Assembly: GCA_043753565.1 (NCBI GenBank)
Contig: JAYUWM010000074.1
Span: forward strand, 25,273 to 89,272
Source: a bacterium
GTDB taxonomy: Bacteria > Patescibacteriota > Saccharimonadia > Saccharimonadales > SZUA-47
DNA: 64,000 bases
Direction: 5' to 3'
The notes below the pieces were generated by a model that was not told the origin of the DNA, did no database searches, and saw only the letters and a program-made list of their open reading frames with translations. Below, piece after piece: positions 7,439 to 23,085 of the stretch (position 1 is its first letter; every line of letters begins with the position of its first letter). The position numbers and the translations under genes were made by a program.

Positions 7439-9015
7439 TGGCATATACTAAAAATAACAGAAATACCTCGCTTAGTGCCATAAATAGGTTAGTCCCTATT
7501 AATATAGCTATATCTACCTCAGTCAAAGAATACGGTATTAACATAATAGCTATCAATACTTCTAACACCCTACTAGTAGGGTATGAGTATCGGGTAGGAA
7601 CTAGCTGGGCAACCTCAGTTTTAATAGCTAATACTAATAGTAGCTCACATACTTGGACTGTACAGTCTGCAGGCATATATACTATATGGTGTGCTGCAAT
7701 AGATATATACGGGTACTACTCTGTACCTGCAAACACTGTTGTAGTCATAGCTGCCCCTGGATATAGTTCTATATCGGGTGTAGTTGAAGGGCCTAATATT
7801 AAGTTAGACTGGACAATTTCCGCTAGCGCCTTTGCTATTGATTCTTATGAGATTAGATACGGAGCCGCTTGGGGTACTGCTACATACGTAGGCTCTAGTA
7901 AAGCTACTACATATACTGTCAGAGTAGCCTATTTAGGTCCCTTAACTTGGTGGGTAGCAGCAAAAGACATTGCGGGTAATTTTAGTACCCCTACTGCTGT
8001 GAACATCCCGATTAATAGCCCTAGTAAGGTACTAAATATTATTGCAGATATAATAGATAATAATGTATTATTATATTGGGGGGCACCTGTAGTCGGGTAC
8101 GGGCAAGTACCTATTGACCAATACGAAGTTCGTAAGGGGGCTACCTGGGAAACAGGTACTTTAATAGGTTCAAACGCCAACAGTACTTTTACTAGTATAT
8201 TTGAGCAGGCTGCTGGAGAATACTCGTACTGGATAGCTGCTATTGATACTGCAGGAAACTACGGCGAAGCAGTTAAGTTAAGCGCTAAAGTTAATCAACC
8301 GCCTGACTACGTGCTGAGAAATAATTATAATAGTACTCTACTAGGTACTAAAGTTAATTTTTATCTAGATAATGGTGGATTAGTGGGACCTGTAATTACT
8401 AGTCAATTATGGAGCACACACTTCTCAGGAAATAATTGGAATACTCCAGCAGACCAAGTTACTGCGGGATACCCTATATACGCTACACCGGGAGTAACTT
8501 CTGGTAGCTACGAAGAGATTTTAGATTATGGTACAAATATACTCAGTACTATTGCTACCAGTAACATTACTATAAGCAATATTACTGGTACCGTCACTAA
8601 TGTGTGCACACTGTCATGGAAGCTAAATATTGGGGATCCTTGGACAGTAATGTCCACAGGTAGTAATGTTGTACTTCTACCCGTATTTAGGTACCTACGT
8701 GTACAATACGCATTTAGTTGCACCGGATTAAATAACCTAGTACGAATAAGTAGCTTAAATATCAAGCTGGATATTAAACAGCGCTCCGACTCTGGCAATG
8801 CAGTAGCTGTTGTAGGCGGAACTCAGGTAAATTTTGGGTACCCCTTTATATACGTAGATACCCCCATAGTACAGCCTAGCAGTACAACTACACCTCTTGT
8901 ACCTGTAGTTAATTATGTAGGTACAGTCAACCCCACTAATTTTACTGTACGAATTTTTAACCTATCTGGTGTTGAAGTTGGTGGGGCCTTTTCATGGGCA
9001 GTTAAGGGTTATTAA
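7438..9015 (+). CDS. tail-tip protein with FN3-like repeats (host-specificity J-like region)
   Basis: ATG overlaps the upstream stop (TAATG). Repeated motif YE[IV]R.G..W....(I/V)G......W(V/I)AA.D.AGN(F/Y) occurs about 3 times. Confidence 0.55.
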   Translation: MAYTKNNRNTSLSAINRLVPINIAISTSVKEYGINIIAINTSNTLLVGYEYRVGTSWATSVLIANTNSSSHTWTVQSAGIYTIWCAAIDIYGYYSVPANTVVVIAAPGYSSISGVVEGPNIKLDWTISASAFAIDSYEIRYGAAWGTATYVGSSKATTYTVRVAYLGPLTWWVAAKDIAGNFSTPTAVNIPINSPSKVLNIIADIIDNNVLLYWGAPVVGYGQVPIDQYEVRKGATWETGTLIGSNANSTFTSIFEQAAGEYSYWIAAIDTAGNYGEAVKLSAKVNQPPDYVLRNNYNSTLLGTKVNFYLDNGGLVGPVITSQLWSTHFSGNNWNTPADQVTAGYPIYATPGVTSGSYEEILDYGTNILSTIATSNITISNITGTVTNVCTLSWKLNIGDPWTVMSTGSNVVLLPVFRYLRVQYAFSCTGLNNLVRISSLNIKLDIKQRSDSGNAVAVVGGTQVNFGYPFIYVDTPIVQPSSTTTPLVPVVNYVGTVNPTNFTVRIFNLSGVEVGGAFSWAVKGY

Positions 9016-9687: not shown

Positions 9688-10830
9688 ATGTCGAATAAAT
9701 TAAGAATAGTATACCAAAATTTAGTAAATAGTACCGCACCTATTAATACATCTAGTACAGCTTCGGCAGCCACCCCAAGTAGTAATTTAACTAAAGACAC
9801 TAAATCTTTAGTATGGAGGTCTGCTACTTCGCCTACTGCAGCAAAAGCTAATCTGGTACTAAGTTTCCCTAGTACTATAGTGGGCGGTGTTATTCTGCCT
9901 TTTTGTAATTTAAGCTCTGAAGCTACTATACGTATTCGCGGATATACGGGTAACACGCCCACATTAGGCAGTACTACTACCGCTAGTATAACAACTACTA
10001 GCGGTAGTAATATAGTTACAGGTAGTTTTCTTAATATTGCGGTAGGTGACGTACTATCTACCAATAGCTATACCCAGGCAGGTACTACAGTTTTAATAGG
10101 TTCTACTACAACTAGCCTTATTTTATCTACAAATGCTTTGGGTACAGTATCTAACTATTCAACGTTATTCACTAGCCCCACTAATTCTATAGTAAATACC
10201 TTAAGCGGCGGACCTAGTAAAAATGATGTCATTACAACCACAGGAACCTTGATATTTGATTCAGGGGCTGTATTAGCCGCACCTTACCAACCATTGGGGT
10301 TATGGAGCTGGGGAAGTCTACCATTAGGAGTTAATAGTTACTCTTATGGTGGAGGCACATATGGACGAGTATGGTTACCTGATAATCAGCAATTAGCATG
10401 TACTAGTATACTAATAGAAATATTAGATGTTACTAATATTTCTGGATATATAGAACTATCTAGGTTAGTAATAGGGGCTTACTGGTCGCCCAAGTTTAAT
10501 ACATCATTTGGACTATCTACAAATACTAAAGACCTTAGTACTCATCAGCGCAGCGAATCAGGAGATCTAGTAACTAATAGAGGTACTAGGCATAATAGTA
10601 TGTCTTTTGATTTAAAATGGCTAACTCCTATAGATCGCCTAGAATTTACTAGAATTCTTAAAGGTAACGGTCTGCCGAAACCTTTATTTATTAGTTTATT
10701 TCCAGATTCTTCAGAAGACTGGTCTAAAGAACAATCCCACCAAATATACGGTAAGTTATCCCAGTTAGTCGGTATAGAACACAGTATATTTGATATATAT
10801 AGCACTAGTATTGAGATAGAAGAGGTTTAG
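9688..10830 (+). CDS. hypothetical tail/baseplate protein
   Basis: 380-aa ORF, Ser/Thr-rich N-terminal half, tightly packed between tail genes. Confidence 0.5.
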   Translation: MSNKLRIVYQNLVNSTAPINTSSTASAATPSSNLTKDTKSLVWRSATSPTAAKANLVLSFPSTIVGGVILPFCNLSSEATIRIRGYTGNTPTLGSTTTASITTTSGSNIVTGSFLNIAVGDVLSTNSYTQAGTTVLIGSTTTSLILSTNALGTVSNYSTLFTSPTNSIVNTLSGGPSKNDVITTTGTLIFDSGAVLAAPYQPLGLWSWGSLPLGVNSYSYGGGTYGRVWLPDNQQLACTSILIEILDVTNISGYIELSRLVIGAYWSPKFNTSFGLSTNTKDLSTHQRSESGDLVTNRGTRHNSMSFDLKWLTPIDRLEFTRILKGNGLPKPLFISLFPDSSEDWSKEQSHQIYGKLSQLVGIEHSIFDIYSTSIEIEEV

Positions 10831-10835
10831 ACATA

Positions 10836-12659
10836 ATGCCACCAAATTTTTACGCAGGTCAAGCAGACTACATTACAGAATTAAATAAGCTAGCTACCGT
10901 TGCAGATATTGGCGGTATTACATCTAACGTCGCTTCTGCTGCTGCAAGTGCTACAGCAGCGGCAGCGTCCAATATTAATGCTGATACTGCAAGAGATGCG
11001 GCAGTGGTGGCACGCATCGCTGCAGAAACGGCTTTGGACAGCTTTGATGATCGGTATCTTGGACCAAAGGCTGCAGCTCCAACACTAGATAATGACGGGG
11101 TCGCACTGCTTGTAGGCGCACTTTACTTTGATACCGTGATCAACGGAGGTTCCATGCGTGCGTGGAACGGTACGAGTTGGGTAGGCTTTACAGCAGCTAC
11201 TAACGCATCCGCTGTGTCCAATACTCCGGCAGGTAATATCGCCGCGACCACAGTACAAACGGCACTTAATGAGCTGGACGTGGAGAAAGCTAATCTTGCT
11301 AGTCCCGCATTCACAGGTACAGTCAGTGGAATAACAAGCACAATGGTAGGCCTTGGAGCAGTTAACAACACTAGTGACTCTGCCAAACCAGTATCTACTG
11401 CTCAGGCAGCAGCGGATACTGCAGTACAATCTGCTGCTGCTACTGATGCCACTACTAAAGCTAATGCTGCACAAGCTGCTTCAGCTCCTGTAGCACACGT
11501 AGGCTCTAGTGGTACTTCACATGCTGTAGTATCTACTACAGTAGCAGGCTTTATGATTGCTGCTGATAAAGTAAAAATTGACGCCATAACTGGTACTAAT
11601 ACGGGCGATCAAACTACTATTACTGGTAATGCAGGTTCAGCTACGGTTCTTCAGACTACTAGGACTATCAATGGTGTAGCGTTTAACGGCTCAGCTAATA
11701 TTACTGTTAATGCTGTGGACGCTACCGCACGTATTGCTAGTTCTCTAATTGGTGCAGTTAGCGGCGTAGCCGCTTTAGATGCTACAGGCAAAGTTCCTGC
11801 AGCACAGCTGCCCTCATATGTAGATGATGTACTGGAATTCGCTAACCTCGCCGGATTTCCAGCTACAGGTGAGATAGGTAAAATATACGTAGCTATAGAT
11901 ACTAATAAGGCCTACCGTTGGTCTGGCACAGTATACGTCTACATTACTTCAGGAGCGGTAGATTCTGTAGCTGGTAAAACTGGCATTGTTACACTAGTCA
12001 AAGCTGATGTAGGTTTAAGTCTTGTTGATAATACGTCTGATGCCTCTAAGCCAGTATCTACTGCTCAAGCAACTGCGGATGCCCTTAAACAAGACCTAAG
12101 TGGTAAAGATGCTACAGGTGGTTATGCAGGCTTAACGCTGTTTAGGCTCAATCTTAAGAACGCGGCCAACACAATCACTAGTTGGTTTACTACTGCAGCT
12201 ACTGCAGCACGTACCTGGACTATGCCAGATAAAGATGGTACAGTAGCGATGACATCAGATATTACTGGTGTCAACTCAGGTACTAATACAGGTGACAATT
12301 CTGTTAATACTCTGTACTCAGGGTTAGTTAGTAACGCTACGCATACAGGCGATGCGACGGGCTCTACTATACTTACTATAGCAGCTGGTGTTGTTACCGA
12401 TGCTAAGCTGTCAGCAGTCAATACCGCAAGCATTAAAGGGCGAATATCTGCAGGAATTGGGGCTCCAGAGAACCTAACAGGAACGCAGACCACAACATTG
12501 CTCGATCCTTTTACTAGCACGCTTAAAGGTCTTGTTCCGGCGTCCGGAGGCGGTACAACTAACTTTTTGAGGGCTGACGGCACTTTCGCAACACCTGCTG
12601 GTGGCGGGGGCGGTGTCGCTACAGGATTCGAGACAAATTTTCTTTTAATGGGAGCGTAA
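10836..12659 (+). CDS. tail fibre protein
   Basis: Two NTSD(S/A).KPVSTAQA.AD fibre repeats, TGTNTGD motifs, TVQTALNELD, and C-terminal FLRADGTFATPAGGGGG. Composition turns GC-rich inside the gene. Confidence 0.75.
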   Translation: MPPNFYAGQADYITELNKLATVADIGGITSNVASAAASATAAAASNINADTARDAAVVARIAAETALDSFDDRYLGPKAAAPTLDNDGVALLVGALYFDTVINGGSMRAWNGTSWVGFTAATNASAVSNTPAGNIAATTVQTALNELDVEKANLASPAFTGTVSGITSTMVGLGAVNNTSDSAKPVSTAQAAADTAVQSAAATDATTKANAAQAASAPVAHVGSSGTSHAVVSTTVAGFMIAADKVKIDAITGTNTGDQTTITGNAGSATVLQTTRTINGVAFNGSANITVNAVDATARIASSLIGAVSGVAALDATGKVPAAQLPSYVDDVLEFANLAGFPATGEIGKIYVAIDTNKAYRWSGTVYVYITSGAVDSVAGKTGIVTLVKADVGLSLVDNTSDASKPVSTAQATADALKQDLSGKDATGGYAGLTLFRLNLKNAANTITSWFTTAATAARTWTMPDKDGTVAMTSDITGVNSGTNTGDNSVNTLYSGLVSNATHTGDATGSTILTIAAGVVTDAKLSAVNTASIKGRISAGIGAPENLTGTQTTTLLDPFTSTLKGLVPASGGGTTNFLRADGTFATPAGGGGGVATGFETNFLLMGA

Positions 12660-12660
12660 C

Positions 12661-12987
12661 ATGCCAAATTTATATAAAGTCCTTGGACAATCAAACCCAG
12701 CAGCGGCCACACTGACTACACTATACACAGTGCCTACAGCAACTTCGGCGGTCTGCTCTACTCTAGCAATCTGTAATCAAGGCGTTTCAACTTTATACCG
12801 AGTCGCAATTCGCCCAGCAGGAGCGCTCATTTCAGCTGCACACTATATTGTTTTCGATGCTGCGGTCGCTTCATTAGATACTGTTTTCCTTACGTTAGGC
12901 ACTACACTTGCAGCAACTGACGTTATTTCGGTACAAGCAGGTACAACAACAGTCAGCTTTAATCTTTCTGGCACGGAGATTACTTAA
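12661..12987 (+). CDS. small fibre-associated protein (hypothetical)
   Basis: 108 aa; starts 1 nt after the fibre stop and overlaps the next gene start (TAATG). Confidence 0.5.
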   Translation: MPNLYKVLGQSNPAAATLTTLYTVPTATSAVCSTLAICNQGVSTLYRVAIRPAGALISAAHYIVFDAAVASLDTVFLTLGTTLAATDVISVQAGTTTVSFNLSGTEIT

Positions 12988-15440
12988 TGAGTAGCCGCAC
13001 AGCGTCACGAAGCGGGCTTGTTGGAAAAAGCCTTTCTGTACCTTTCATCCATCCAAAGGGGGGAACCTCCAGTGCAGCATGGTACCGTGAACCTAGTTGG
13101 TTAGCACTACCTGACGTTACAGGGCTACAAAGACTTGTCGGTGTCGTTGCGATTTGGCCTGATTCGAACTTTCTTGCAGTGACATGCGCTGGGAGTCTTG
13201 GTTACCTGGTTGATTGGGGAGATGGCACGTCTTCCACAGTAGCCACAACAGTTCAAGCCGACAAACAGTACGATTTTAACTCTGTTTCTCTTGCAAATAC
13301 AAACGCACCCTGCACCTTGACAGATATAGGCGATTTGGTTACGCGTACTGCACACGGGTACACCAGCGGACAAACAGCAAAGTTTTTCAACATTTTAACG
13401 ACTACCGGGTTAACAGATAACTACACATACTTTGTTATCAACGCTACAGCAGACACTTTCCAAGTGGCGTTGACTCTAGGAGGTGCCGCGATTGCATTGA
13501 CACTTGATGGAACTGCGACACTGTTACCGTATAAGCAAGCTATAGTAAGTATAACACCTCAAAGCACAGGGACGTTAACATCACTGAATTTGAACGTAAA
13601 ACATGCAGCAATTGGTGGAAGTATTTTACCTGCGTACACAGCTGGCTGGCTGGATATAGCTATTGCTGGAACGAGTTTAGCTACTTTAACTATTGGGGGC
13701 GTTACTGTATATCAAGGGGATCTAGAACAGGTTAAGATAGTTGGTGGTAATAGCATCACGTCCATGGCCACTATGTTCAGTAACTGCTACTCCTTACAGT
13801 CAGTACCACTGTTCAGTACAGCGGGTGTAACGAATATGGTTAGTATGTTCCTTAACTGCTACTCCTTACAGTCTGTACCGCTATTCAATACAGGGGCTGT
13901 AACGAGTATGGCTAGCATGTTCAACGCCTGCTCCTCCTTACAGTCTGTACCACTGTTCAGTACAGCGGGTGTAACGAATATGGCTAGTATGTTCAACGCC
14001 TGCTACTCCTTACAGTCAGTACCGCTATTCAATACAGTGGCTGTAACGAGTATGTCTAGTATATTCAGTAGCTGCCCTTTATTACAGTCAGTACCTCTGT
14101 TTAATACAGCGGCTGTAACGAGTATGTCTAGTATGTTCAGTAGCTGCTCCTCACTACAGTCAGTACCGCTATTCAATACAGCGGGTGTAACGAATATGGT
14201 TAGTATGTTCATTAACTGCTACTCCTTACAGTCTGTACCGCTATTCAATACAGGGGCTGTAACGAGTATGGCTAGCATGTTCAACGCCTGCTCCTCACTA
14301 CAGTCAGTACCATTGTTTAATACAGCGGCTGTAACGAGTATGACTAGTATGTTCGCTAACTGCCCATCCTTACAGTCAGTACCACTGTTTAATACAGCGG
14401 TTGTAACGAATATGTCTAACATGTTCAACGCCTGCTTCTCTTTACAATCAGTACCTCTCTTCAATACAGGGGCTGTAACGACTATGTCTACTATGTTCAG
14501 TGGTGGCTGCTTCTCCTTACAGTCTGTACCACTGTTCAATACAGTAGCAGTTACCGATATGACCAGCATGTTCAGTAACTGCTCCTCCCTACAGTCAGTA
14601 CCGCTGTTCAATACAGCGGCTGTAACGAGTATGTCCACTATGTTCAACTCCTGTCCCTCCTTACAGTCAGTACCACTGTTCAATACAGCGGCTGTAACGA
14701 GTATGACTAACATGTTCAACACCTGTAGGTCTTTACAGTCAGTACCGCTGTTCAATGCAGGATTGATAGGATTTGCAACTGGCATGTTTTCAAACTCCAC
14801 TCAATTAGCTGTAGGCAGGTTGAATAATTTAAAAGTTGCTATCAGCTACGCAGGGTGTAAGTTATCTAAAACCGCCTTGGAAGATATTTTCAATGGGCTT
14901 GGAAAAGCATCAGGTGCACAGACATTTACCATCGGAACAAACTGGGGGGCAGCCCCTGTAGTATCTCTTTCTGGAACTACTACAGAGGGCTCTCTCACTG
15001 TGACAATGGCAAGCACTACAGGAATTGCAGTTGGGATGCAAGTAACTGGGACCAACTCTCCACTGACAAAAGATGGAGCCGTATCACTACAAGACGCGGG
15101 AGACACTGTTACGCGAGCTAGTCACCTACTACTAAATGGTACTGAAGTTTCGTTTGCAACCATTGTTAATACTACTGGTATTGCTACATTTACCCCATAC
15201 TTTGTTATCAACGCCACAGTAAATACTTTCCAAGTGGCACTGACTGCAGGAGGTGCCGCAATTGCGTTGACCCTTGACGGTACGGGTTCAATTCTGTATC
15301 GAACAGTGGTTGAGGCTATCAACCCAAACGTATCTGTAACGCTTTCGCGCCCCGCCACAGCAAGCGGATTGACAACGCTTACCTATCGTCAGTTAACAAC
15401 AGGAACGGCTATTCTTAAAGGCTGGACTGTTTCAGGATAA
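12987..15440 (+). CDS. BspA-like leucine-rich-repeat (DUF285-type) adhesin / receptor-binding protein
   Basis: 14 tandem 24-aa units xCxSLQSVPLFNTxxVTxMxxMFx, flanked by two paralogous ~68-aa domains (aa 113-180 and 703-770). Confidence 0.8.
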   Translation: MSSRTASRSGLVGKSLSVPFIHPKGGTSSAAWYREPSWLALPDVTGLQRLVGVVAIWPDSNFLAVTCAGSLGYLVDWGDGTSSTVATTVQADKQYDFNSVSLANTNAPCTLTDIGDLVTRTAHGYTSGQTAKFFNILTTTGLTDNYTYFVINATADTFQVALTLGGAAIALTLDGTATLLPYKQAIVSITPQSTGTLTSLNLNVKHAAIGGSILPAYTAGWLDIAIAGTSLATLTIGGVTVYQGDLEQVKIVGGNSITSMATMFSNCYSLQSVPLFSTAGVTNMVSMFLNCYSLQSVPLFNTGAVTSMASMFNACSSLQSVPLFSTAGVTNMASMFNACYSLQSVPLFNTVAVTSMSSIFSSCPLLQSVPLFNTAAVTSMSSMFSSCSSLQSVPLFNTAGVTNMVSMFINCYSLQSVPLFNTGAVTSMASMFNACSSLQSVPLFNTAAVTSMTSMFANCPSLQSVPLFNTAVVTNMSNMFNACFSLQSVPLFNTGAVTTMSTMFSGGCFSLQSVPLFNTVAVTDMTSMFSNCSSLQSVPLFNTAAVTSMSTMFNSCPSLQSVPLFNTAAVTSMTNMFNTCRSLQSVPLFNAGLIGFATGMFSNSTQLAVGRLNNLKVAISYAGCKLSKTALEDIFNGLGKASGAQTFTIGTNWGAAPVVSLSGTTTEGSLTVTMASTTGIAVGMQVTGTNSPLTKDGAVSLQDAGDTVTRASHLLLNGTEVSFATIVNTTGIATFTPYFVINATVNTFQVALTAGGAAIALTLDGTGSILYRTVVEAINPNVSVTLSRPATASGLTTLTYRQLTTGTAILKGWTVSG
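13323..13526 (+). repeat. intragenic domain duplication, copy 1
   Basis: Encodes DIGDLVTRTAHGY...YFVINATADTFQVALTLGGAAIALTLDGTATLL. The paralogous copy is at 15093-15296. Confidence 0.8.
13753..14797 (+). repeat. 14 x 72-bp coding tandem repeat (LRR units)
   Basis: Periodic ...tccttacagtcagtaccgctgttcaatacagcggctgtaacgagtatg... Segments 13821-13936 and 14181-14296 differ at one base. Confidence 0.9.
15093..15296 (+). repeat. intragenic domain duplication, copy 2
   Basis: Encodes DAGDTVTRASH...YFVINATVNTFQVALTAGGAAIALTLDGTGSIL. Confidence 0.8.
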
Positions 15441-15445
15441 TCATT

Positions 15446-15622
15446 ATGCCATTTTTCAAAATAGACAATGCTGAAATTGAAGAAACTACCCACATTGACG
15501 GGCCTGGATTCAGTCTTTCGGAGGCCGGAAAGACTGATTACATTTACCCTATAGAAGGGTGGTATTGGTTTGCTTCGGTGACTGATAGTAGAGTCTTCTT
15601 TAACTTGCCCGAACCTGCGTAA
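15446..15622 (+). CDS. small hypothetical protein (58 aa)
   Basis: ATG 15446 lies 6 nt after the LRR gene stop: MPFFKIDNAEIEE...EGWYWFASVTD... Below the ORF-track cutoff. Confidence 0.45.
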   Translation: MPFFKIDNAEIEETTHIDGPGFSLSEAGKTDYIYPIEGWYWFASVTDSRVFFNLPEPA

Positions 15623-15624
15623 AT

Positions 15625-15660
15625 AAAAATGCTCTGCGTATTTTTAGGCAGGGCATTTTT
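15625..15660 (+). terminator. rho-independent terminator
   Basis: Stem aaaaatgctctgc/gcagggcattttt ending in a T-run. Confidence 0.7.
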
Positions 15661-15664
15661 ACTC

Positions 15665-15693
15665 TTGACCCTAAACTGCGTTTGTGGTATAAT
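15665..15693 (+). promoter_or_regulatory. sigma70-type promoter (TTGACC-17-TGgTATAAT)
   Basis: -35 at 15665-15670, -10 at 15688-15693, with an extended -10 TG. Confidence 0.7.
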
Positions 15694-15784
15694 ATACCAG
15701 GCCTAGTAATAAGGTATATTATACAGCTTCTCAACACTGATACTTAGGTGTTCAACATATTTTTTACTGTACGAGGTTACTAAC

Positions 15785-17011
15785 ATGGCATTTGACCCAC
15801 TAAAACCAGCAACAACTGATAACTTCCTAACAGACTTTACACAAGGTATTAAGGCCAACTCAGTAGCATTAGCTCAGTGGCTTGACAGTACGAATGTGAC
15901 CATTACAGGCGCGACTCCTCCTTTTGCCAAGCGATACAATAGAGCTAGTGGCTTTATTGAGGAGTACAGTGGTACGGTGTGGGGTACCCTTACTGTGAAC
16001 ATCCCCGGAAATGCTGCAACTGCTACGAATGCAGTTAATGCTGTTAATGCCACGAATGCAGTTAACTCCACGAATGCAGTTAACTCTACGAATGCCACTA
16101 ATGCTGTCACAGCCACCAACCTAGCCGCAGGTGCAGCAGGCACAATCCCCTGGCAGTCCGCACCCGGCACTACTCTGTTTACTGTGGCAGGTACAGCTGG
16201 TATGGTATTAGTATCAAATGGAGCAGGTGCACCCACTTGGACGTCTGCCCCTACTTTCTCAGCTCCTACGCTTGGAACACCTGTATCTGGCAACCTTGTC
16301 AATTGTTCGATCCCATACTCACAATTGACTGGCACTATTCCAATTTGGAATCAAAGTACCACAGGCACCGCTGCAAGCGCAGACACGGCAGCTGCCTGCA
16401 CAGGCAACGCAGCCACGGCAACTACCTCTAATGGCTCATTCCGGTCCATACAGGTCTTTACAGCTTCTGGAACGTATACCAAGCCTGCCGGGCTGGTGCG
16501 GGCGAAGATTACTGTGGTGGGCGGCGGCGGCGGAGGTTCTGGTGCAAACGGAACCCCCTCTAGCGGCGGAGGAGGCGGAGGTACGGCTATCAGGGTACTT
16601 TCTGCTTCAAGTATTGGGACAACTGAAACTATCACTATTGGTGGCGGAGGAGGAGGAGGCTCCGCTGGATCTCCCGGTGGTGGCGACGCATACTCCCCTA
16701 TTCCGCCTGTCCCGGCTGGCGGCGGAGGCGGCGCTGGCACTTCCTCTATGGGCACACTGGCGTCTGCAACAGGAGGGGGTGCAGGAAACCCCGCTAGCGG
16801 AGGAGCTGGCGGGGGTACAGGCACGTCAGGAAATATAAATCTTGGCGGGGGCGGCGGGGGTCCTACTGGAGGATCCAGTTTTATGGGTGGTGGCGGCCCA
16901 GTAAACGGCGGCCCGGGTAGAGCCTTCGGCGGAGGCGGTGGAGGCTCTCTTGCCTATACCAGTGGCGGAGCCGGCGCAGCCGGCGTAGTATTTATTGAGG
17001 AGTTCTTCTAA
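15785..17011 (+). CDS. glycine-rich fibre-like structural protein
   Basis: N-terminal fibre-like region, (T/S)NAVN(A/S) hexapeptide repeats, then FTASGTYTKPAGLVRAKITVVGGGGGGSG and long poly-Gly blocks. Confidence 0.7.
   Translation: MAFDPLKPATTDNFLTDFTQGIKANSVALAQWLDSTNVTITGATPPFAKRYNRASGFIEEYSGTVWGTLTVNIPGNAATATNAVNAVNATNAVNSTNAVNSTNATNAVTATNLAAGAAGTIPWQSAPGTTLFTVAGTAGMVLVSNGAGAPTWTSAPTFSAPTLGTPVSGNLVNCSIPYSQLTGTIPIWNQSTTGTAASADTAAACTGNAATATTSNGSFRSIQVFTASGTYTKPAGLVRAKITVVGGGGGGSGANGTPSSGGGGGGTAIRVLSASSIGTTETITIGGGGGGGSAGSPGGGDAYSPIPPVPAGGGGGAGTSSMGTLASATGGGAGNPASGGAGGGTGTSGNINLGGGGGGPTGGSSFMGGGGPVNGGPGRAFGGGGGGSLAYTSGGAGAAGVVFIEEFF
16021..16110 (+). repeat. 18-bp coding tandem repeats (NAVNxT hexapeptides)
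   Basis: acgaatgcagttaa(c/t)nc(c/t) iterated about 5 times. Confidence 0.75.
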
Positions 17012-17451
17012 TGAAAAAAGTATTGATTTTTGAAAACAAAATCCACGACATTGTTGAAGTAGGGGCCGAGTTTCCGGTAGCCCGGGAAATGAAGTGGGTT
17101 GATGCGCCAGATACTGTAGACAGCGCCACACACGAATTCAATGGCAAGGCATTCGACCTTAAACTCATTCTAGTGACACCTCCTGTGCAAGCCTTCGTGG
17201 CAACCCTTGCGCCGTTAGACTTTCTTGAGCGATTCACGCTTACAGAGCAGCTTGCCATTACGACTGCAGCAATGCAGTCTCCCATGGTGCGCTTGTGGTA
17301 CGACAAGATGATTGCTGCACGCAGTATCGACGTTGCGGATGCTCGCGTAATTGCCGGTCTGGACGCGCTGATTGCAGCAGGCCTGCTATCAGCTTCACGC
17401 AAATCTGTGCTGTTGATACCCGCGGGCCAAATCCCAGTGGCCCTGCTATGA
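17011..17451 (+). CDS. hypothetical protein (cassette gene 2)
   Basis: 146 aa; TAATG overlap upstream and ATGA overlap downstream. Confidence 0.55.
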   Translation: MKKVLIFENKIHDIVEVGAEFPVAREMKWVDAPDTVDSATHEFNGKAFDLKLILVTPPVQAFVATLAPLDFLERFTLTEQLAITTAAMQSPMVRLWYDKMIAARSIDVADARVIAGLDALIAAGLLSASRKSVLLIPAGQIPVALL

Positions 17452-17837
17452 CGCAACCCGTAATTGCCTTAGGGTGCGTTGCAAACCTATTTTCCCGCAT
17501 GATGCGCTTTACCTACGCAGGGGATACAGAGCAAGGACATACGCACAATTTTGACCACCTTACGCTCCTTGCCAAAGGGAAGCTAAAGGTCACTGTCGAA
17601 GGCATGGCAACGGAGTTCAACGCGCCCCAGATGATTTACATCAAGGCCGACAAGAACCACGAACTTGTCGCCCTTGAGGACGACACACTGGCCTACTGCA
17701 TTCATGCCCTGCGTACAAAAGACGGCTCGGACATTCTTGACCCTGCCATGATTCCTGCGGGTGTTAATCCACTAGGTCTGGCCCAACCTATTTGTACTAT
17801 CACTACTGAAATTAATGTACCCAGCGTTGTTCTCTAA
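17448..17837 (+). CDS. cupin-like small protein (putative)
   Basis: Start trimmed to ATG 17448 (ATGA overlap with upstream stop). G-H-T-H-N-F-D-H plus a beta-rich region resembles a cupin metal site. Confidence 0.5.
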   Translation: MTQPVIALGCVANLFSRMMRFTYAGDTEQGHTHNFDHLTLLAKGKLKVTVEGMATEFNAPQMIYIKADKNHELVALEDDTLAYCIHALRTKDGSDILDPAMIPAGVNPLGLAQPICTITTEINVPSVVL

Positions 17838-17873
17838 CAGCTACGTATACTCATTGGCTCAGAAAGACGTCTT

Positions 17874-18341
17874 ATGAAAATCGTTTTTATTTACGGCAAC
17901 CATCTGAGCGCCCGTCTAACCAAGTTATTCACCGGCTCAACCTGCTACCACATTGGCTTTACTGACGGCATCAAGTTTTGGGACATGCACAAAATACGTC
18001 GTCGCCGCTTGTGGGACGGGCTGTACCCACCTGCTCGCTACCTGCTGGCTGATTGCCCAGTGCCCGTCACGGCTGAGTACCTTGACCACAAACTGGACAC
18101 CGACAACAGCACCTATGGCTACATCGATTATTTGCTGTTCGGCCTGCGCGGGTTTTACCACTTGGTGGGCAAGTCAACACGCAATGCCGGTGGCGTGATC
18201 TGCTCGGAGATGGTAGCCGACGACTTGGCAGCTTGCGGCTGGACAAAGCGGTTCTACGAAGTGCCTTCGCCCGCTGATTTGGAAGTATCTGTGCTGGGGC
18301 GAATAGACTACATGGCTAGAGATGTAGCTACCCGACCCTAA
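17874..18341 (+). CDS. permuted papain-fold (YiiX/LRAT-like) hydrolase, putative
   Basis: 155 aa with His (TCYHIGF) upstream of Cys (GGVICSEMV). Assignment from motif memory only. Confidence 0.35.
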   Translation: MKIVFIYGNHLSARLTKLFTGSTCYHIGFTDGIKFWDMHKIRRRRLWDGLYPPARYLLADCPVPVTAEYLDHKLDTDNSTYGYIDYLLFGLRGFYHLVGKSTRNAGGVICSEMVADDLAACGWTKRFYEVPSPADLEVSVLGRIDYMARDVATRP

Positions 18342-18359
18342 ACTGTTAAAACCGTAAAT

Positions 18360-18395
18360 AAAAATGCCCTGCTTATTTTTAGGCAAGGCATTTTT
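18360..18395 (+). terminator. rho-independent terminator
   Basis: Stem aaaaatgccctgc/gcaaggcattttt with a T-run. Confidence 0.65.
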
Positions 18396-18399
18396 ACTC

Positions 18400-18428
18400 T
18401 TGACCCTAAACTGCGTTTGTGGTATAAT
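18400..18428 (+). promoter_or_regulatory. sigma70-type promoter (TTGACC-17-TATAAT)
   Basis: -35 at 18400-18405, -10 at 18423-18428. Confidence 0.7.
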
Positions 18429-18506
18429 ATAGCAACCCTAGTAATAAGGTATAAATTTTCACAATATATAAGATAGGCTCTATCTTATTTTTATAAGGGC
18501 TTTCTT

Positions 18507-18863
18507 ATGGAAGTTACTAACCTAGCCCAAGTATTAGGCATTTTAATTGCATTTTTAGGTATTATAGCTTTCGGGCTACAAACTATTATGAAAAACTGGA
18601 AAAGTAGCTCTACTGAGTCTTCTCTGTTAACGCTTATGCATGGCGAACTAGAACGTATGTCTAGTCAAAATACTACTTTATCTAATGAAATTGGTAAGCT
18701 ACAAGTTGAACTAATTAAGCTTAGTAACCAGCTGTCTAGACTGAATGTAGAGAATCAAAAACTACAAGAAGAGGTAGCCATGCTAAATAAGGAAATCTCT
18801 AGACTGCACACTATTATGCTACGCCAAACAGTGGAATTTCCAGATGTACTCAAAAAAGATTGA
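18507..18863 (+). CDS. membrane-anchored coiled-coil protein
   Basis: N-terminal TM segment (LGILIAFLGIIAFGL) followed by heptad-rich LQVELIKLSNQLSRLNVENQKLQEEV. Confidence 0.55.
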   Translation: MEVTNLAQVLGILIAFLGIIAFGLQTIMKNWKSSSTESSLLTLMHGELERMSSQNTTLSNEIGKLQVELIKLSNQLSRLNVENQKLQEEVAMLNKEISRLHTIMLRQTVEFPDVLKKD

Positions 18864-19053
18864 GCTTGTATCTAAATATCTAGTATATAAGGGCGAAGCT
18901 TTATTAGGTAGCTCGGAAGATGCGCCCGTATGGAGAATACGCAGAATCTTAATAGATGTTAGTGGAGTAGAAACTACTGAATGTATTTATAATTCCAAAT
19001 GGAAAGATAGGTACTGCTTACCTTACGGAGACATACAATGTCCGCGACTATAA
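18844..19053 (+). CDS. hypothetical protein
   Basis: 69-aa ORF overlapping neighbours by 20 and 16 nt. Confidence 0.4.
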   Translation: MYSKKIELVSKYLVYKGEALLGSSEDAPVWRIRRILIDVSGVETTECIYNSKWKDRYCLPYGDIQCPRL

Positions 19054-19394
19054 ATTTAAAAATATACCAAGGAGCTACGTACTCTAAAAAAGTTATCTGG
19101 CAAGGCGGGACTCCCGTAGCTCCTATTAACCTTACTGGTTGTACAGCTAAAATGCACGTTAGAAGTAAGGCAGGCGACCCTAACCTACTTTTAGCCTTTA
19201 CTACAGAGAACGGCGGTATAGTACTTGGTGGTACAACAGGCTCTATTGAGTACTGTAAGCTTAGCGCTCTAGCGTCTGCTGCAATTACATGGCTTACAGG
19301 TGTGTACGATTTAAAAATTACCTTTCCTGATGGTACGGTTACCCGTAAAATATCAGGCAGTATAATTATATCTCCTGAGGTAACTAATGTCTGA
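19038..19394 (+). CDS. Ig-like tail adaptor protein (BppU-N-like), putative
   Basis: Pattern IYQGATY...W.......L.G......V.........[12 protein letters not shown]..(I)[10 protein letters not shown]. Confidence 0.45.
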
Positions 19395-19905
19395 TGAAGT
19401 ACTATTAGTATCAGAAACTCAATATTTCCTAGTAGATGGTACCACAGAGATATTAGTAAAAGAAGAAGGTACTGTTCAATTAATTGAACTTTATGAACAA
19501 GGCCCTCCCGGTCCTCAAGGTTCACTAGGTCTTACAGGACCTAGTGGACCTATTGGAATACAGGGACCTATAGGCCCCGTAGGCTTCACGGGGGCTATAG
19601 GTCTTACAGGTGCAACAGGCCTTACAGGTGCGCAGGGTCCTATAGGGGTAACTGGAGATACAGGGCCCACAGGACTTACCGGAGCCACAGGTCTTACAGG
19701 AGCTGCAGGTGACCTAAATTATAAGCATGTCCAAGGGCCTGCTTCAGCAGACTGGCTAGTGACGCATAATCTCGGCAAATTTCCTTCAGTTACTATAGTT
19801 GATAGTGCTGGCGAAGAGGTTGAAGGGTCTGTTCAACATATTAATAATAGCAGCCTAAGAATTCTATTTTCTGCTGGATTCACAGGTACTGCGTACCTAA
19901 ACTAA
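19387..19905 (+). CDS. collagen-like repeat fibre protein
   Basis: About 26 uninterrupted G-X-Y triplets ([19 protein letters not shown]...), then a C-terminal domain paralogous to 26986..27303. Confidence 0.75.
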
Positions 19906-19917
19906 TCGGAGTACATT

Positions 19918-21165
19918 ATGAGTCGCAAATTTCTTGCCCACATCAATCTAGCTAAAAACGAGATTCAAAACGCTATTATCCAGAATTTGGCTACAGCTCC
20001 TGCTGCACCGATTCCTGGACAGATTTATTACAATACTACGTCAGGTCGTTTTGAGTACTACAGTGCGGCTGCTTGGGTAGACCCAACCTCTAGAGCTAAT
20101 CATACTGGTACACAGCCTGTAGCCACAATTACAGGTCTTGCAGCTATAGCTACTAGTGGCTCTGCTGCTGATCTAAGCGCGGGAACACTACCAGCAGCTC
20201 GTTTTGATGACGTAGCTCACGGAGCCCGGGCTGGCGGTACTACACACTCTGTTGTATTAGCTGCAGGTGCTGCAGGTTTTATGACTGGAGCAGACAAGAC
20301 TAAGCTAGATGGCGTAGCCGCAGGTGCGACTGCTAACAGCACAGACGCTATCTTGCTCGCACGCGCTAATCATACAGGTACACAACTAGCCGCTACTATT
20401 AGTAACTTCGATACTCAGGTACGTACTAGTAGCATAGCGCAAATGACTGCACCTATAGCTTCTGTAAACGTGGGTGGTCAGTTACTAATCAACGTAGCTA
20501 CCCCCGTTTCGGCTACAGACGCTACTAATAAAGGTTACGTAGATGCACTAGTCAACGGTACTGACTGGAAACTATCTGTACGCGTTGCTTCTACAGCAAA
20601 TAGCTTGCTGTCTGGATTGTTGACACTTGACGGCATTACGGTAGCAGCAGGCGACCGCGTTCTACTAAAAAATCAGACAGTAGGTGCTGAAAACGGTATC
20701 TACGTGGCGTCTTCGGGTGCTTGGACAAGAGCTACAGATGCTGACGTAAGCGCAGAAGTAACGTCTGGCATGGCTATGATGGTCACCGAAGGTACTACGC
20801 AAGGCGACACTCAGTGGGTATTAACTACCAATGACCCTATCGTTATTGGTACTACAGCACTTGTATTTGCCCAAATCGGGGGAAGCACGAGCTACACTGC
20901 AAGTACTGGTATATCTATTACAGGTAACTCGATTGCTATAGATACTGCAGTAGTGGCTCGCAAATTTGCAGCTCTTGTTGGTGCAGGTACATCAGTTGCA
21001 ATTACGCATAACTTAAACACCTTAGACGTAACAGTGCAAGTGTACGAAGTAGCTGACGGGGCAACTGTTGAGTGTGATGTAATACGTAACACAGTAAATC
21101 AAGTTACATTAGGCTTCGCAATAGCTGTTGTTGCCAGCGCATTCCGAGTTGTTGTACAAGGCTAA
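19918..21165 (+). CDS. tail fibre protein
   Basis: Two RANHTGTQ repeats, a GADKTKLDG motif, and N- and C-termini paralogous to 27314..27706. Confidence 0.7.
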   Translation: MSRKFLAHINLAKNEIQNAIIQNLATAPAAPIPGQIYYNTTSGRFEYYSAAAWVDPTSRANHTGTQPVATITGLAAIATSGSAADLSAGTLPAARFDDVAHGARAGGTTHSVVLAAGAAGFMTGADKTKLDGVAAGATANSTDAILLARANHTGTQLAATISNFDTQVRTSSIAQMTAPIASVNVGGQLLINVATPVSATDATNKGYVDALVNGTDWKLSVRVASTANSLLSGLLTLDGITVAAGDRVLLKNQTVGAENGIYVASSGAWTRATDADVSAEVTSGMAMMVTEGTTQGDTQWVLTTNDPIVIGTTALVFAQIGGSTSYTASTGISITGNSIAIDTAVVARKFAALVGAGTSVAITHNLNTLDVTVQVYEVADGATVECDVIRNTVNQVTLGFAIAVVASAFRVVVQG

Positions 21166-21168
21166 AAT

Positions 21169-21690
21169 ATGGCTAAGAAAGTTCTGGGATATGAGGCCCT
21201 TGCGTCCCTTGCTATAGCAGCAGGGGCACTAACACCAAACCCTGGAATTATAGGTGTCCAGGTTTGGAGCACCACTTTAGCAGCCCCCGTAAGCTGGAAT
21301 GGTACTAGCTGGAATGCGGCGGGTTCTGGAGGAACTGTGGCCGCAAGTTCGGTAACGAACGTTCCAGCGAATGGTATCGTTGCAACAAACGTGCAGGCTG
21401 CTATCGACGAACTAGCTACCAAACCTAGCAGAGTGGTCGTGACTACCAGCGCTAACACCACAATGGCTTTAGTAAGCAACACGGACTATGTGTACTTTGT
21501 TGCTGGCGCACACCTAATTAGTCTTCCGTCACCAAATACAAATCGGTACACGGTCAAGAACAACCACTCAGCTGATATTACCATAGACACAGCAGGAGTT
21601 GAACTAATAGAGGGAGCAGCCAGTATTTCTATTAGACCAGAAAGCTCTGTTGATCTTGTCTCTAACGGTACAAATTGGTTCGTAATTTAA
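21169..21690 (+). CDS. fibre/spike-associated protein (putative)
   Basis: 173 aa; contains NVQAAIDELATK, a motif shared with the fibre genes. Confidence 0.5.
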   Translation: MAKKVLGYEALASLAIAAGALTPNPGIIGVQVWSTTLAAPVSWNGTSWNAAGSGGTVAASSVTNVPANGIVATNVQAAIDELATKPSRVVVTTSANTTMALVSNTDYVYFVAGAHLISLPSPNTNRYTVKNNHSADITIDTAGVELIEGAASISIRPESSVDLVSNGTNWFVI

Positions 21691-21702
21691 CGAGAACATC
21701 AT

Positions 21703-23085
21703 ATGGCATATACCCCCCAAAACCCAAATGGGCAAGCTATAGCAGCAGCTAGCTCCCCTGTAGTCTTAGCATCTAATCAAAGTGCAGTACCTGTCACAGG
21801 TCCACTAACAGACACCCAATTACGTACAACTCCTGTTGCGATCTCAGGCTCCATTGCAAACACTAGTTTTTCCGTCAATAACAACGGTGTTGTTTCCACG
21901 GTCAACAGTTCCGCCGTTGCGCTGGGTATAGGGGCTCTGTTCACAGGTTCATCCGAGGACGTAACAGAGCAGGCGGATGTGCGGGTCAGCGTTTTCACGG
22001 ATCAAGCCAGTGCTGTCGATGGCCTGCAATTACAGCAGTCCAGCAATGGCACAAACTGGGACATTGTTGATAGCTACACAGTGCCTGCCAACGCAGGCAA
22101 AACCTTTAGCGTAGGTGTTTCTGCCAAGTTTTTCCGCGTTGTTTACACCAATGGCGGGGTAGCGCAAACTCTATTTCGCTTACAGGTCAAATACCACAAG
22201 ACCTACAGCAAAGGCTCGTCCGTTCGTCCGCAAGATGCAAGAACCAACGACAACGACATGGAGGAGCAACTTGCGCATCTTCTAGGGTTTAATGGCGTAA
22301 GTTGGGATAGGTTACGTAGTACTGTAGCTAATGGCTTGGCGGTAGATGTGACCCGCTTGCCTGCTTTGGTAACAGGTGCTGCAGTAATCGGCGCTTTGGT
22401 GGCGAACCAGTCTGTCAACAAAGCACAGATTAATGGTGTCGTGCCTTTGATGGGCAACGGTATCACAGGTACAGGTAGCCAGCGGGTCACAATTGCATCA
22501 GATAACACAGCATTTCCAGTTAACGCAACTCTTGCAGCTGAGACGACTAAGATCATAGGTACCGTCAACAGCTCCGTAAAAGCAACCTATAGAGCATCCA
22601 CCATTATTCCTTTAGTGGCGGCAGTAACGGTTAATGTACCCTTCCTAAACATTATTGGGTCGGCTACCAAGACTATCACAGTAAAACGTATCAGAGTATC
22701 TGGTATGACGCTAACTGCTGTCGGATACTTTGCAATCAATGTGGAAAAGCTTTCATCGGCGTCTACTTTGGGTACTTTTTCAACCCTTGTGGCTACATCA
22801 TTGGATACCAATAATGCAGTCGTTACGGCGGTAGTCAAGGCGTACACAGCAGCACCAACAAAAGGTACATTAGTTGGCACCATTGCAAGCCATCGAACAC
22901 TTTGGCAAGCAACGGTAGCAGCAGCAGCGGGCGTCACAGACGACACCATATTTGAGTTTGGGAATGCTGGAGATGTACAAGGAGTCGTTTTACGTGGAGC
23001 TGCACAAGAATTGGCCATGACTTTCCCTGTGGTATTGGCATCAGCAGGTACTCTAGCAATAAGCATTGAGTGGACCGAGGAATAA
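21703..23085 (+). CDS. hypothetical structural protein
   Basis: 460-aa ORF in the late block. Confidence 0.5.
   Translation: MAYTPQNPNGQAIAAASSPVVLASNQSAVPVTGPLTDTQLRTTPVAISGSIANTSFSVNNNGVVSTVNSSAVALGIGALFTGSSEDVTEQADVRVSVFTDQASAVDGLQLQQSSNGTNWDIVDSYTVPANAGKTFSVGVSAKFFRVVYTNGGVAQTLFRLQVKYHKTYSKGSSVRPQDARTNDNDMEEQLAHLLGFNGVSWDRLRSTVANGLAVDVTRLPALVTGAAVIGALVANQSVNKAQINGVVPLMGNGITGTGSQRVTIASDNTAFPVNATLAAETTKIIGTVNSSVKATYRASTIIPLVAAVTVNVPFLNIIGSATKTITVKRIRVSGMTLTAVGYFAINVEKLSSASTLGTFSTLVATSLDTNNAVVTAVVKAYTAAPTKGTLVGTIASHRTLWQATVAAAAGVTDDTIFEFGNAGDVQGVVLRGAAQELAMTFPVVLASAGTLAISIEWTEE

What the first reader, a model, noticed from the sequence alone, without database searches (positions are those of the whole stretch)
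10900..18355. GC-rich mosaic island covering the receptor-binding end of the tail module
The backbone is AT-rich. From inside the fibre gene (about 10.9 kb) to 18,355 the DNA is visibly GC-rich. Compare 16,501-16,560 (ggcgaagattactgtggtgggcggcggcggcggagg...) with 18,451-18,500 (ataaattttcacaatatataagatagg...). The left edge falls inside CDS 10836..12659, so that fibre looks chimeric. The right edge is sharp and coincides with a duplicated terminator-promoter repeat. Every gene inside is fibre- or adhesin-like. This suggests a horizontally acquired host-range module from a higher-GC source. I did not compute GC numerically.
Basis: partly seen in the sequence, partly recalled or inferred. Interest (0 to 1): 0.6.

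Follow-up and report, generated by a model that had tools for sequence, protein, structure and literature searches.

The report
Mosaic tail-fibre slot of T5-like phage
The GC-rich stretch is real, but it is the ordinary, frequently swapped tail-fibre slot of an uncultured T5-like phage: about half of its extra GC comes from the alanine/glycine/threonine-rich fibre proteins, and only a few small genes at its right end look recently imported from higher-GC phages.

Summary
Bases 10,900-18,355 have 48.5% GC, against 40.1% for the rest of the 103-kb phage contig, and this is the GC-richest stretch of its length. The left step lies about 65 nt inside the fibre gene. The right edge falls to 34% exactly at a 101-nt terminator-promoter repeat.

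It is not one island from one donor. Recoding each gene with backbone codon usage shows that 55% of the GC excess is amino-acid composition. That share is 89% for the first fibre, whose GC3 of 0.30 equals the backbone. Strongly foreign codon usage (GC3 0.52-0.66) is confined to three small genes at 17.0-18.3 kb. One of them, a permuted-papain-like enzyme, is 87% identical in DNA to a gene on a 59%-GC contig, and its named relatives sit mostly in betaproteobacterial genomes.

Relatives of the phage keep both flanking genes and the fibre's first ~20 residues. Between the flanks they carry nothing, or different fibres.

The slot holds at least three units:
- a patchwork fibre;
- a three-gene DUF285 adhesin module shared with many phages;
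- a four-gene cassette bracketed by the repeat, arranged like the PeSL cassettes of T4-type phages.

This is ordinary phage mosaicism, clearly documented.

The parts
9688..10830 (+). Conserved baseplate-like gene (380 aa, phrog_8610). It is the left anchor of the variable slot.
   Evidence: 46-70% identical homologues in 9 related contigs, always just upstream of the fibre or of the hol-like gene. GC3 0.23.
10836..10901 (+). Codons 1 to about 22 of the fibre. This is the lineage-conserved N-terminal anchor, motif FY(A/V)GQxDYIxxLN.
   Evidence: Shared with the fibres of L003/L130, G061, L131, L132, L133, L134 and L135. The sequences diverge after about residue 20. The raw GC step starts here.
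10836..12659 (+). Patchwork tail fibre (607 aa). It is Ala/Thr/Gly-rich, and its GC rise comes from amino-acid composition.
   Evidence: 18 PHROG fibre or minor-tail families hit in pieces. IMG/VR relatives match only segments, for example aa 294-423 at 67% and aa 424-476 at 85%. Observed GC 0.472 against 0.476 expected; GC3 0.299.
12661..12987 (+). Small partner gene (108 aa), first gene of a three-gene mobile adhesin module.
   Evidence: 55-69% identical homologues lie upstream of the DUF285 gene, directly or within about 100 nt, in more than 15 viral contigs of 34-59% GC. GC3 0.30.
12987..15440 (+). DUF285/BspA-type leucine-rich-repeat tail protein (817 aa), a putative adhesin with 72-nt tandem repeats.
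   Evidence: PF03382 at E 2e-59. Repeat family D1. Full-length homologues at 44-54% in IMG/VR. GC3 0.417, and 0.45-0.52 in the repeats.
15446..15622 (+). Conserved 58-codon gene, third gene of the DUF285 module. It ends where the left repeat begins.
   Evidence: tblastn hits at 32-47% immediately downstream of the DUF285 gene in 17 loci.
15618..15718 (+). Left (extra) copy of the terminator-promoter element: hairpin 15624-15661, -35 at 15665-15670, -10 at 15688-15693.
15785..17011 (+). Fibre-like protein (408 aa). It has a lineage-typical N-terminal anchor, NAVNxT repeats and a C-terminal glycine-rich domain.
   Evidence: PF21722 and phrog_863/6202. The N-terminal 73-177 aa are 56% identical to the gene that follows the homologue of 7399-9015 in L136 and L013. 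71% of its GC excess is amino-acid composition.
17011..17451 (+). Small protein (146 aa) of unknown function with foreign codon usage.
   Evidence: GC3 0.52, z 3.0. 1,091 distant relatives, which mostly share residues ~64-137 at about 50% identity.
17448..17837 (+). Cupin-like small protein. Homologues are ~117 aa, so the true start is probably a little downstream.
   Evidence: Cupin_2 at E 1e-4, below the Pfam cut-off. 1,289 hits at E <= 0.001; the best 120 listed are 71-87% identical. GC3 0.55. The gene is also GC-richer than its contig in L138 and L140.
17874..18341 (+). Protein with a permuted-papain (YiiX/C92-like) fold (155 aa). It is the clearest recent import.
   Evidence: GC3 0.66, z 4.4. 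86.8% nt identity over 410 nt to L009, which has 59% GC. 355 hits at E <= 0.001; the best 120 listed are 63-86% identical. Homologues lie in Polaromonas, Burkholderiaceae, Gallionella and Ramlibacter contigs of 56-65% GC. Model pLDDT 82; best fold matches 3kw0 and 2if6. H26 and C110 are invariant.
18353..18453 (+). Right copy of the terminator-promoter element, in the ancestral position in front of the hol-like gene: hairpin 18359-18396, -35 at 18400-18405, -10 at 18423-18428.
   Evidence: Relatives G061 and L136 have an element of the same architecture but different sequence at this position.
18507..18863 (+). Conserved small membrane/coiled-coil protein (118 aa, 'hol-like'). It is the right anchor of the slot.
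   Evidence: 54-64% identical homologues in G061, L136, L017 and L018. GC 0.35, GC3 0.28.
19387..23085 (+).
   Evidence: GC 0.46-0.52. 68% of the excess is amino-acid composition. No homologues found in relative G061.

Best explanation
Bases 10.9-18.45 kb are the hypervariable receptor-binding slot of an uncultured T5-like siphophage. The slot lies between a conserved baseplate-like gene and a conserved small membrane-protein gene. It is a composite of at least three separately inherited units, not one island. Unit 1 is a fibre that keeps the lineage's ~20-residue N-terminal anchor and has a patchwork remainder. Unit 2 is a three-gene module (108-aa protein, DUF285 leucine-rich-repeat adhesin, 58-aa protein) that circulates among many unrelated phages. 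Unit 3 is a four-gene cassette: a Gly-rich fibre, a 146-aa protein, a cupin-like protein and a permuted-papain-like protein. The raw GC rise has two causes of similar size. One is the Ala/Gly/Thr/Pro-rich, Lys/Glu/Ile-poor composition of fibre proteins, which raises codon positions 1 and 2 and says nothing about origin. The other is GC-richer synonymous codons. These are moderate in the DUF285 repeats and the Gly-rich domain, and strong only in the three small genes. At least the last of those genes came recently from a phage pool associated with high-GC, mostly betaproteobacterial genomes. Shown here: the composition split, the synteny and the homologies. Inferred: units are exchanged by recombination at the conserved anchor-coding 5' ends and at the intergenic terminator-promoter element. 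The cassette entered at the element in front of the hol-like gene. The likely route is a single crossover with a circular or co-infecting DNA carrying a related element, which leaves the element duplicated on both sides. The duplicated element then gives the cassette its own promoter, terminates the upstream fibre operon, and leaves expression of the downstream gene unchanged.
For: GC profile and rank. Amino-acid against codon decomposition: whole island +0.090 GC, of which 55% is amino-acid composition; by block 89%, 38%, 71% and 20%. Synteny with the complete relative G061 and with L003, L018 and L130-L136: the flanks are conserved, and the slot is 0 kb, 5.8 kb or 7.6 kb with unrelated contents. 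The fibre N-terminal motif is conserved in 7 relatives. The three-gene module is conserved in more than 15 contigs of 34-59% GC. The N-terminus of the 408-aa protein is conserved next to the homologue of 7399-9015 in L136 and L013. The 155-aa gene has 86.8% nt identity to a 59%-GC contig, and its homologues lie in genomes of 56-65% GC. The repeat has only two copies, with hairpin plus consensus promoter. Relatives carry an element of the same architecture in front of the hol-like gene. Other terminator-promoter elements in this phage have different sequences.
Against: No near-identical sister genome was found, so no empty site with a single element copy has been seen. The two copies differ at 6 of 101 positions, so the duplication is not very recent, or it came from a diverged element. 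The direction of events (insertion or internal relocation) is not resolved. The 146-aa gene has no close homologue, so its foreign origin rests on GC3 alone. GC3 of backbone genes varies (sd 0.07), so the moderate excesses (z 1.1-1.6) are not significant gene by gene. Promoter and terminator function are predicted, not measured.
Confidence: 0.75

Rival explanations
1. One reading: the whole 7.5 kb was acquired in one horizontal event, as a host-range module from a single higher-GC donor.
For: The raw GC plateau is continuous and has sharp edges. The slot contents are absent from relatives.
Against: GC3 is heterogeneous, from 0.30 to 0.66. The first 2.1 kb has backbone codon usage. Each unit has different relatives, in phages of 34-59% GC. 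The N-terminal anchors of both fibres are native to the lineage. An internal terminator-promoter copy separates two transcription units.
Confidence: 0.06
2. Purely compositional effect: fibre proteins are Ala/Gly/Thr-rich, so the DNA is GC-rich, and nothing was recently transferred.
For: 55% of the excess is amino-acid composition. Relatives L131 and G061 show the same GC jump in their own fibre or Gly-rich genes at low GC3.
Against: Three genes have GC3 0.52-0.66 with ordinary amino-acid composition (z 3-4.4). One has 86.8% nt identity to a gene on a 59%-GC contig. Slot contents differ between relatives.
Confidence: 0.08
3. The repeat arose by an internal rearrangement. The 408-aa fibre gene sits directly after the homologue of 7399-9015 in relative L136. 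In this reading it was relocated within the genome to the front of the hol-like gene together with a copy of that gene's terminator-promoter, and the three small genes were added later one at a time. No circular or foreign cassette carrying the element was involved.
For: The adjacency of the homologue of 7399-9015 with a homologue of the 408-aa gene in L136 and L013. The cupin and the 155-aa gene occur elsewhere singly, with different neighbours. GC3 rises stepwise along the cassette.
Against: No scar is visible in the 84-nt gap after 7399-9015. The repeat ends lie cleanly at the cassette ends. The 6% divergence between copies fits a diverged donor element at least as well.
Confidence: 0.2

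Closest known systems
PeSL (promoter-early stem-loop) cassettes of T4-type phages (Arbiol et al. 2010, PMC2839356; Comeau et al. 2014, PMC4122927)
   Same: A composite stem-loop terminator plus strong sigma-70-like promoter sits in intergenic positions of a hyperplastic region and brackets a dispensable gene cassette as direct repeats. The papers propose that the elements act as recombination linkers and insulate the cassette transcriptionally.
   Different: Here there are only two copies of this sequence, not a genome-wide family with a consensus. The phage is a T5-like siphovirus, and the element sits among virion (presumably late) genes rather than early ORFans. No mini-circle or indel between sisters has been observed.
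Morons of lambdoid phages (Juhala, Hendrix and colleagues, 2000; from my own knowledge)
   Same: Extra genes with atypical base composition lie between two genes that are adjacent in relatives, and they carry their own promoter and terminator.
   Different: Classical morons are not flanked by repeated regulatory elements and are expressed from the prophage. This phage appears lytic, and the first cassette gene is a structural fibre.
Variable L-shaped tail fibre loci of T5-like phages, e.g. LtfA/LtfB of DT57C and DT571/2 (Golomidova et al. 2016, PMC4728585; Ayala et al. 2023, PMC10713586)
   Same: The phage group is the same: the DNA polymerase is 47% identical to those of DT57C, DT571/2 and pVp-1. 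Several fibre proteins are encoded side by side, and the fibres are highly divergent while the other structural proteins are conserved (abstracts listed).
   Different: No detectable sequence homology of these fibres to T5 or DT57C Ltf was found (searches gave no match). A branched architecture is not shown here.
Gly-rich adhesins of the T4 superfamily (gp38; Trojet et al. 2011, PMC3157838)
   Same: Adhesins of the tail fibre that are among the most variable, modular virion genes (abstract listed). That gp38 is glycine-rich is from my own knowledge. Homologues of the cupin gene lie one or two genes after a gene with a GP38 Pfam hit in L138 and L140.
   Different: The 408-aa protein matches PF21722 (Gly_rich_2), not PF05268, and carries its own fibre-like N-terminal half.

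Membership tests
Compositional genomic island acquired from a higher-GC donor | Raw GC clearly above the backbone, with definable edges | tested here: met
   0.485 against 0.397 (sd 0.019). It is the GC-richest window of its size on the contig.
Compositional genomic island acquired from a higher-GC donor | Atypical synonymous codon usage (GC3) throughout the island, independent of amino-acid composition | tested here: not met
   GC3 is 0.30 in 10836-12987, equal to the backbone. The excess is strong only in 17011-18341. 55% of the total excess is amino-acid composition.
Compositional genomic island acquired from a higher-GC donor | Closest relatives of the island genes lie in higher-GC genomes outside the phage's lineage | tested here: inconclusive
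   Met for the 155-aa gene (56-65% GC hosts). Met for the best full-length hit of the 408-aa gene (55% GC). Not met for the DUF285 module (34-59% GC) or the cupin gene (39-45% GC).
Compositional genomic island acquired from a higher-GC donor | Absent from related genomes that keep the flanks | tested here: met
   G061, L018 and L136 keep both flanks with different or no contents between them.
PeSL-type mobile regulatory cassette | Composite element: stem-loop terminator plus sigma-70-like promoter in an intergenic site | tested here: met
   Hairpins of -21.1 and -18.8 kcal/mol followed by T runs, then TTGACC-17 nt-TATAAT preceded by TG. This is sequence prediction only.
PeSL-type mobile regulatory cassette | Direct copies flank dispensable or variable genes in a hyperplastic region | tested here: met
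   The copies bracket four genes inside the slot that varies between relatives.
PeSL-type mobile regulatory cassette | Many copies per genome sharing a consensus | tested here: not met
   Only two copies of this sequence exist in the assembly. Other terminator-promoter elements share the architecture, not the sequence.
PeSL-type mobile regulatory cassette | Recombination between copies demonstrated (indels between sister phages, mini-circles) | not testable with these tools
   No near-identical sister was found in the collections.
PeSL-type mobile regulatory cassette | T4-type myovirus, early promoters | tested here: not met
   The phage is T5-like by its polymerase, and the element lies among virion genes.
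YiiX/Peptidase C92 permuted papain fold (for 17874-18341) | His upstream of the catalytic Cys, and a fold match to solved members | tested here: inconclusive
   H26 and C110 are invariant in 30 homologues. Foldseek matches 3kw0 (prob 0.99, TM 0.47-0.50, E 3e-3) and 2if6 (prob 0.6). There is no Pfam hit.

The most novel reading that the evidence does not exclude
Recombination at composite terminator-promoter elements, so far described for early hyperplastic regions of T4-type myoviruses, may also load and unload receptor-binding cassettes in the virion-gene region of T5-like siphoviruses. The cupin-like and permuted-papain-like genes stay 63-87% identical in protein across phages of very different GC, and the cupin gene stays GC-richer than the contigs that carry it. 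They may be a class of widely travelling fibre-associated accessory enzymes with a general role at the host surface.
Probability: 0.3. Interest if true: 0.45.

Novelty: new member of a known kind. Interest (0 to 1): 0.3.

Why it matters
It is a clean worked example that a raw GC island in a phage tail module can be largely an amino-acid effect. Raw GC alone would have dated 7.5 kb as foreign, whereas codon-level analysis leaves about 1.3 kb strongly atypical. It also maps the exchange joints of an uncultured T5-like lineage: a ~20-residue fibre anchor, a three-gene adhesin module, and a cassette bounded by a terminator-promoter repeat. This helps in reading host-range modules in metagenomic phages. 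Finally, it flags two very widespread, conserved small enzymes of unknown role next to fibre genes.

Tried and rejected
- Megablast of the flanks and of the island against 50,697 cultured phage records found nothing. tblastn of the baseplate-like, cupin and 155-aa proteins against the same records also found nothing.
- An exact search for the 29-nt promoter core in IMG/VR found no match, so no donor or sister carrying the element is known.
- Searching 60 genomes related to the bin for the baseplate-like gene gave no hit outside the window's own contig. The phage contig is therefore probably not a prophage of that small-genome lineage.
- The 146-aa protein was compared with the DUF4376 fibre-assembly protein that precedes the 155-aa homologue in Polaromonas. 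They are not similar.
- The 84-nt gap after 7399-9015 shows no scar of a relocated gene.
- Tetranucleotide distance is raised for every fibre block (z 2.1-4.2). It cannot separate amino-acid effects from codon effects, so I did not use it as evidence of origin.
- The 12-nt match between the end of the 155-aa gene and the -35 region (GACCCTAAACTG) was noted and not pursued. It may be chance.
Full report
**Setting.** The window is C74:25273-89272 of a 131-contig bin. C74 is 103,308 bp with 40.7% GC, and its first 98 nt recur at its end, so it looks like a complete circularly assembled phage genome. Its DNA polymerase is 47% identical to those of T5-like phages such as Vibrio phage pVp-1 and Escherichia phages DT57C and DT571/2. 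None of 60 related small genomes carries the baseplate-like gene. The contig is therefore a phage binned with that genome, not a shared prophage.

**Observation.** With 300-nt windows, GC is 0.33-0.40 up to 10.85 kb and 0.49-0.53 at 10.85-11.3 kb. It stays at 0.40-0.65 until 18.35 kb and is 0.34 at 18.35-18.65 kb. Segment 10,900-18,355 has 0.485 GC. Other windows of the same length on the contig average 0.397 (sd 0.019), and the maximum over the contig starts at coordinate 10,929. The right edge coincides with a 101-nt direct repeat at 15618-15718 and 18353-18453. The copies are 94% identical, and there are only two in the assembly. Each copy has a hairpin followed by a T run (-21.1 and -18.8 kcal/mol). 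Then comes TTGACC, a 17-nt spacer, and TATAAT preceded by TG.

**What causes the GC?** I recoded each gene with the codon usage of 23 backbone genes in the window (9,706 codons, coding GC 0.399). This gives the GC expected from amino-acid composition alone (one search repeats it with a contig-wide backbone set).

| Block | Observed GC | Expected GC | GC3 | Share of excess from amino acids |
|---|---|---|---|---|
| Fibre 10836-12659 | 0.472 | 0.476 | 0.299 | 89% (with the 108-aa gene) |
| DUF285 gene plus 58-aa gene | 0.456 | 0.421 | 0.417 | 38% |
| Gly-rich 408-aa gene | 0.559 | 0.513 | 0.428 | 71% |
| Three small genes, 17011-18341 | 0.525 | 0.424 | 0.52, 0.55, 0.66 | 20% |
| Whole island | 0.489 | 0.449 | - | 55% |

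- The fibre row shows that the step at 10.9 kb is entirely an amino-acid effect.
- The GC3 excesses of the three small genes lie 3.0, 3.0 and 4.4 sd above the backbone genes.
- The whole-island excess is +0.090 GC.
- The island proteins hold 13% Ala, 10% Gly and 12% Thr. Backbone proteins hold 9%, 6.5% and 7%. Lys, Glu and Ile are depleted in the island.
- Relatives show the same effect. The fibre of L131 jumps to 0.48 GC with GC3 0.295, and the Gly-rich gene of G061 is 0.479 GC with GC3 0.21.

**Comparison with relatives.** IMG/VR and metagenome scans with the 380-aa baseplate-like protein found nine related contigs (46-70% identity). One of them, G061, is a complete 124-kb genome.
- In G061 the order is: baseplate-like gene, 1,594-aa fibre, 336-aa Gly-rich protein, terminator plus promoter, homologue of 18507-18863 (54%), homologue of 19038-19394.
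- In L018 and L136 the baseplate-like gene is followed directly by the hol-like gene.
- The slot between the two conserved genes therefore holds 0, 5.8 or 7.6 kb of unrelated content.
- The fibres of seven relatives share only the first ~20 residues, FY(A/V)GQxDYIxxLN, with the 607-aa fibre. The fibre is chimeric in the comparative sense, but the GC step there does not show it.

**Units inside the slot.**

1. *The 607-aa fibre.* It matches other viral contigs only in pieces, for example aa 66-116, aa 294-423 at 67% and aa 424-476 at 85%.

2. *The adhesin module.* The 108-aa gene, the DUF285 leucine-rich-repeat gene (PF03382, E 2e-59) and a 58-codon gene at 15446-15622 occur together in more than 15 viral contigs. 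Those contigs range from 34% to 59% GC. The module ends where the left repeat begins.

3. *The cassette between the repeats.* It has four genes.
   - The 408-aa protein's first 73-177 residues are 56% identical to the gene that follows the homologue of 7399-9015. This holds in relative L136 and in the 55%-GC siphophage contig L013, which has a Phage-tail_3/Rcc01698_C-type host-specificity protein. Its N-terminal anchor is therefore native to the lineage, and the gene sits in a different place here. Its C-terminal half is a glycine-rich domain (PF21722), like the Gly-rich gene in the same slot of G061 and L003.
   - The 146-aa protein has only distant relatives.
   - The cupin-like protein has 1,289 hits at E <= 0.001. 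The best 120 are 71-87% identical. Its gene is GC-richer than the contig that carries it in L138 and L140 as well.
   - The 155-aa protein has 355 hits, and the best 120 are 63-86% identical. It is 86.8% identical in DNA over 410 nt to a gene on the 59%-GC contig L009, starting exactly at the start codon. In Polaromonas it is the last gene of a Mu-like prophage tail module. The named genomes carrying it are Burkholderiaceae, Polaromonas, Gallionella and Ramlibacter, plus one Terriglobales bin, all on contigs of 56-65% GC. Its model (pLDDT 82) is most like the permuted-papain proteins 3kw0 and YiiX, and His26 and Cys110 are invariant.

**The repeat.** Relatives G061 and L136 carry an element of the same architecture, with a different hairpin sequence, directly in front of the hol-like gene. 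This phage has further terminator-promoter elements of other sequence, for example at 5.8 kb. The right copy is therefore in the ancestral position and the left copy is the extra one.

A single crossover between that element and a related element on a circular or co-infecting DNA would leave exactly this arrangement. This is the mechanism proposed and partly demonstrated for PeSL cassettes of T4-type phages (PMC2839356, PMC4122927). It is an inference here. The copies differ at six positions, three in the hairpin and three after the -10 box. An internal relocation of the 408-aa gene with later accretion of the small genes remains possible.

**Verdict.**
- It is a host-range slot, the fibre is chimeric, and a few genes are recent imports from a higher-GC pool.
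- It is not one island, and about half of the GC signal is protein composition.
- The arrangement belongs to known kinds: tail-fibre mosaicism, and moron- or PeSL-like cassettes.
- Earlier notes of this scan on the same stretch and on other phages reach similar readings. I used them as leads only.

Noticed in passing
contig C74 as a whole (window = C74:25273-89272): The first 98 nt of C74 recur at its end, so the contig is probably a complete, circularly assembled phage genome of about 103.2 kb. It sits in a bin of a ~0.87-Mb small-genome organism. None of 60 relatives of that organism has the phage's baseplate-like gene, so mis-binning is likely.
   Followed up: partly
C74:98001-100000 (outside the window, downstream of its end): A second GC-rich patch: a 2-kb window with GC 0.524 against 0.40 for the backbone. 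Not examined.
   Followed up: no
window 19387-23085, and contig C107 of the same bin: A second block of fibre-like genes with raised GC (the 415-aa gene matches phrog_2647, and the centre of the 460-aa gene has GC3 0.43-0.60). Contig C107 carries homologues of the 415-aa (40%) and 460-aa (54%) proteins, so a second phage with a related fibre set is in the bin.
   Followed up: partly
window 7399-9015 and 15785-17011; L136:2-1415; L013:4506-9221: The 538-aa protein is 48-52% identical to the C-terminal ~500 residues of a Phage-tail_3/Rcc01698_C host-specificity protein on a 55%-GC siphophage contig. In that contig and in relative L136 the next gene starts with the same N-terminal domain as the 408-aa protein. 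In L136 that gene ends in what looks by eye like a Peptidase_S74-type chaperone domain (no domain search run) instead of a Gly-rich domain.
   Followed up: partly
window 18333-18344 and 15666-15677 / 18401-18412: The 12-mer GACCCTAAACTG at the very end of the 155-aa gene also occurs across the -35 box of both repeat copies. It may be microhomology at a recombination joint, or chance.
   Followed up: no
window 17448-17837; L138, L139, L140, L017, L018: The cupin-like gene recurs a gene or two downstream of fibre or GP38-like adhesin genes in unrelated phage contigs, always with different neighbours. Identity is about 80% in L138-L140 and 44% in L017/L018.
   Followed up: partly
window 23917-24348 and 24363-25106: An endolysin-like gene (phrog_894, E 1.5e-39) and a PhoH-like gene (phrog_170, E 2e-80) follow the fibre region.
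   Followed up: no
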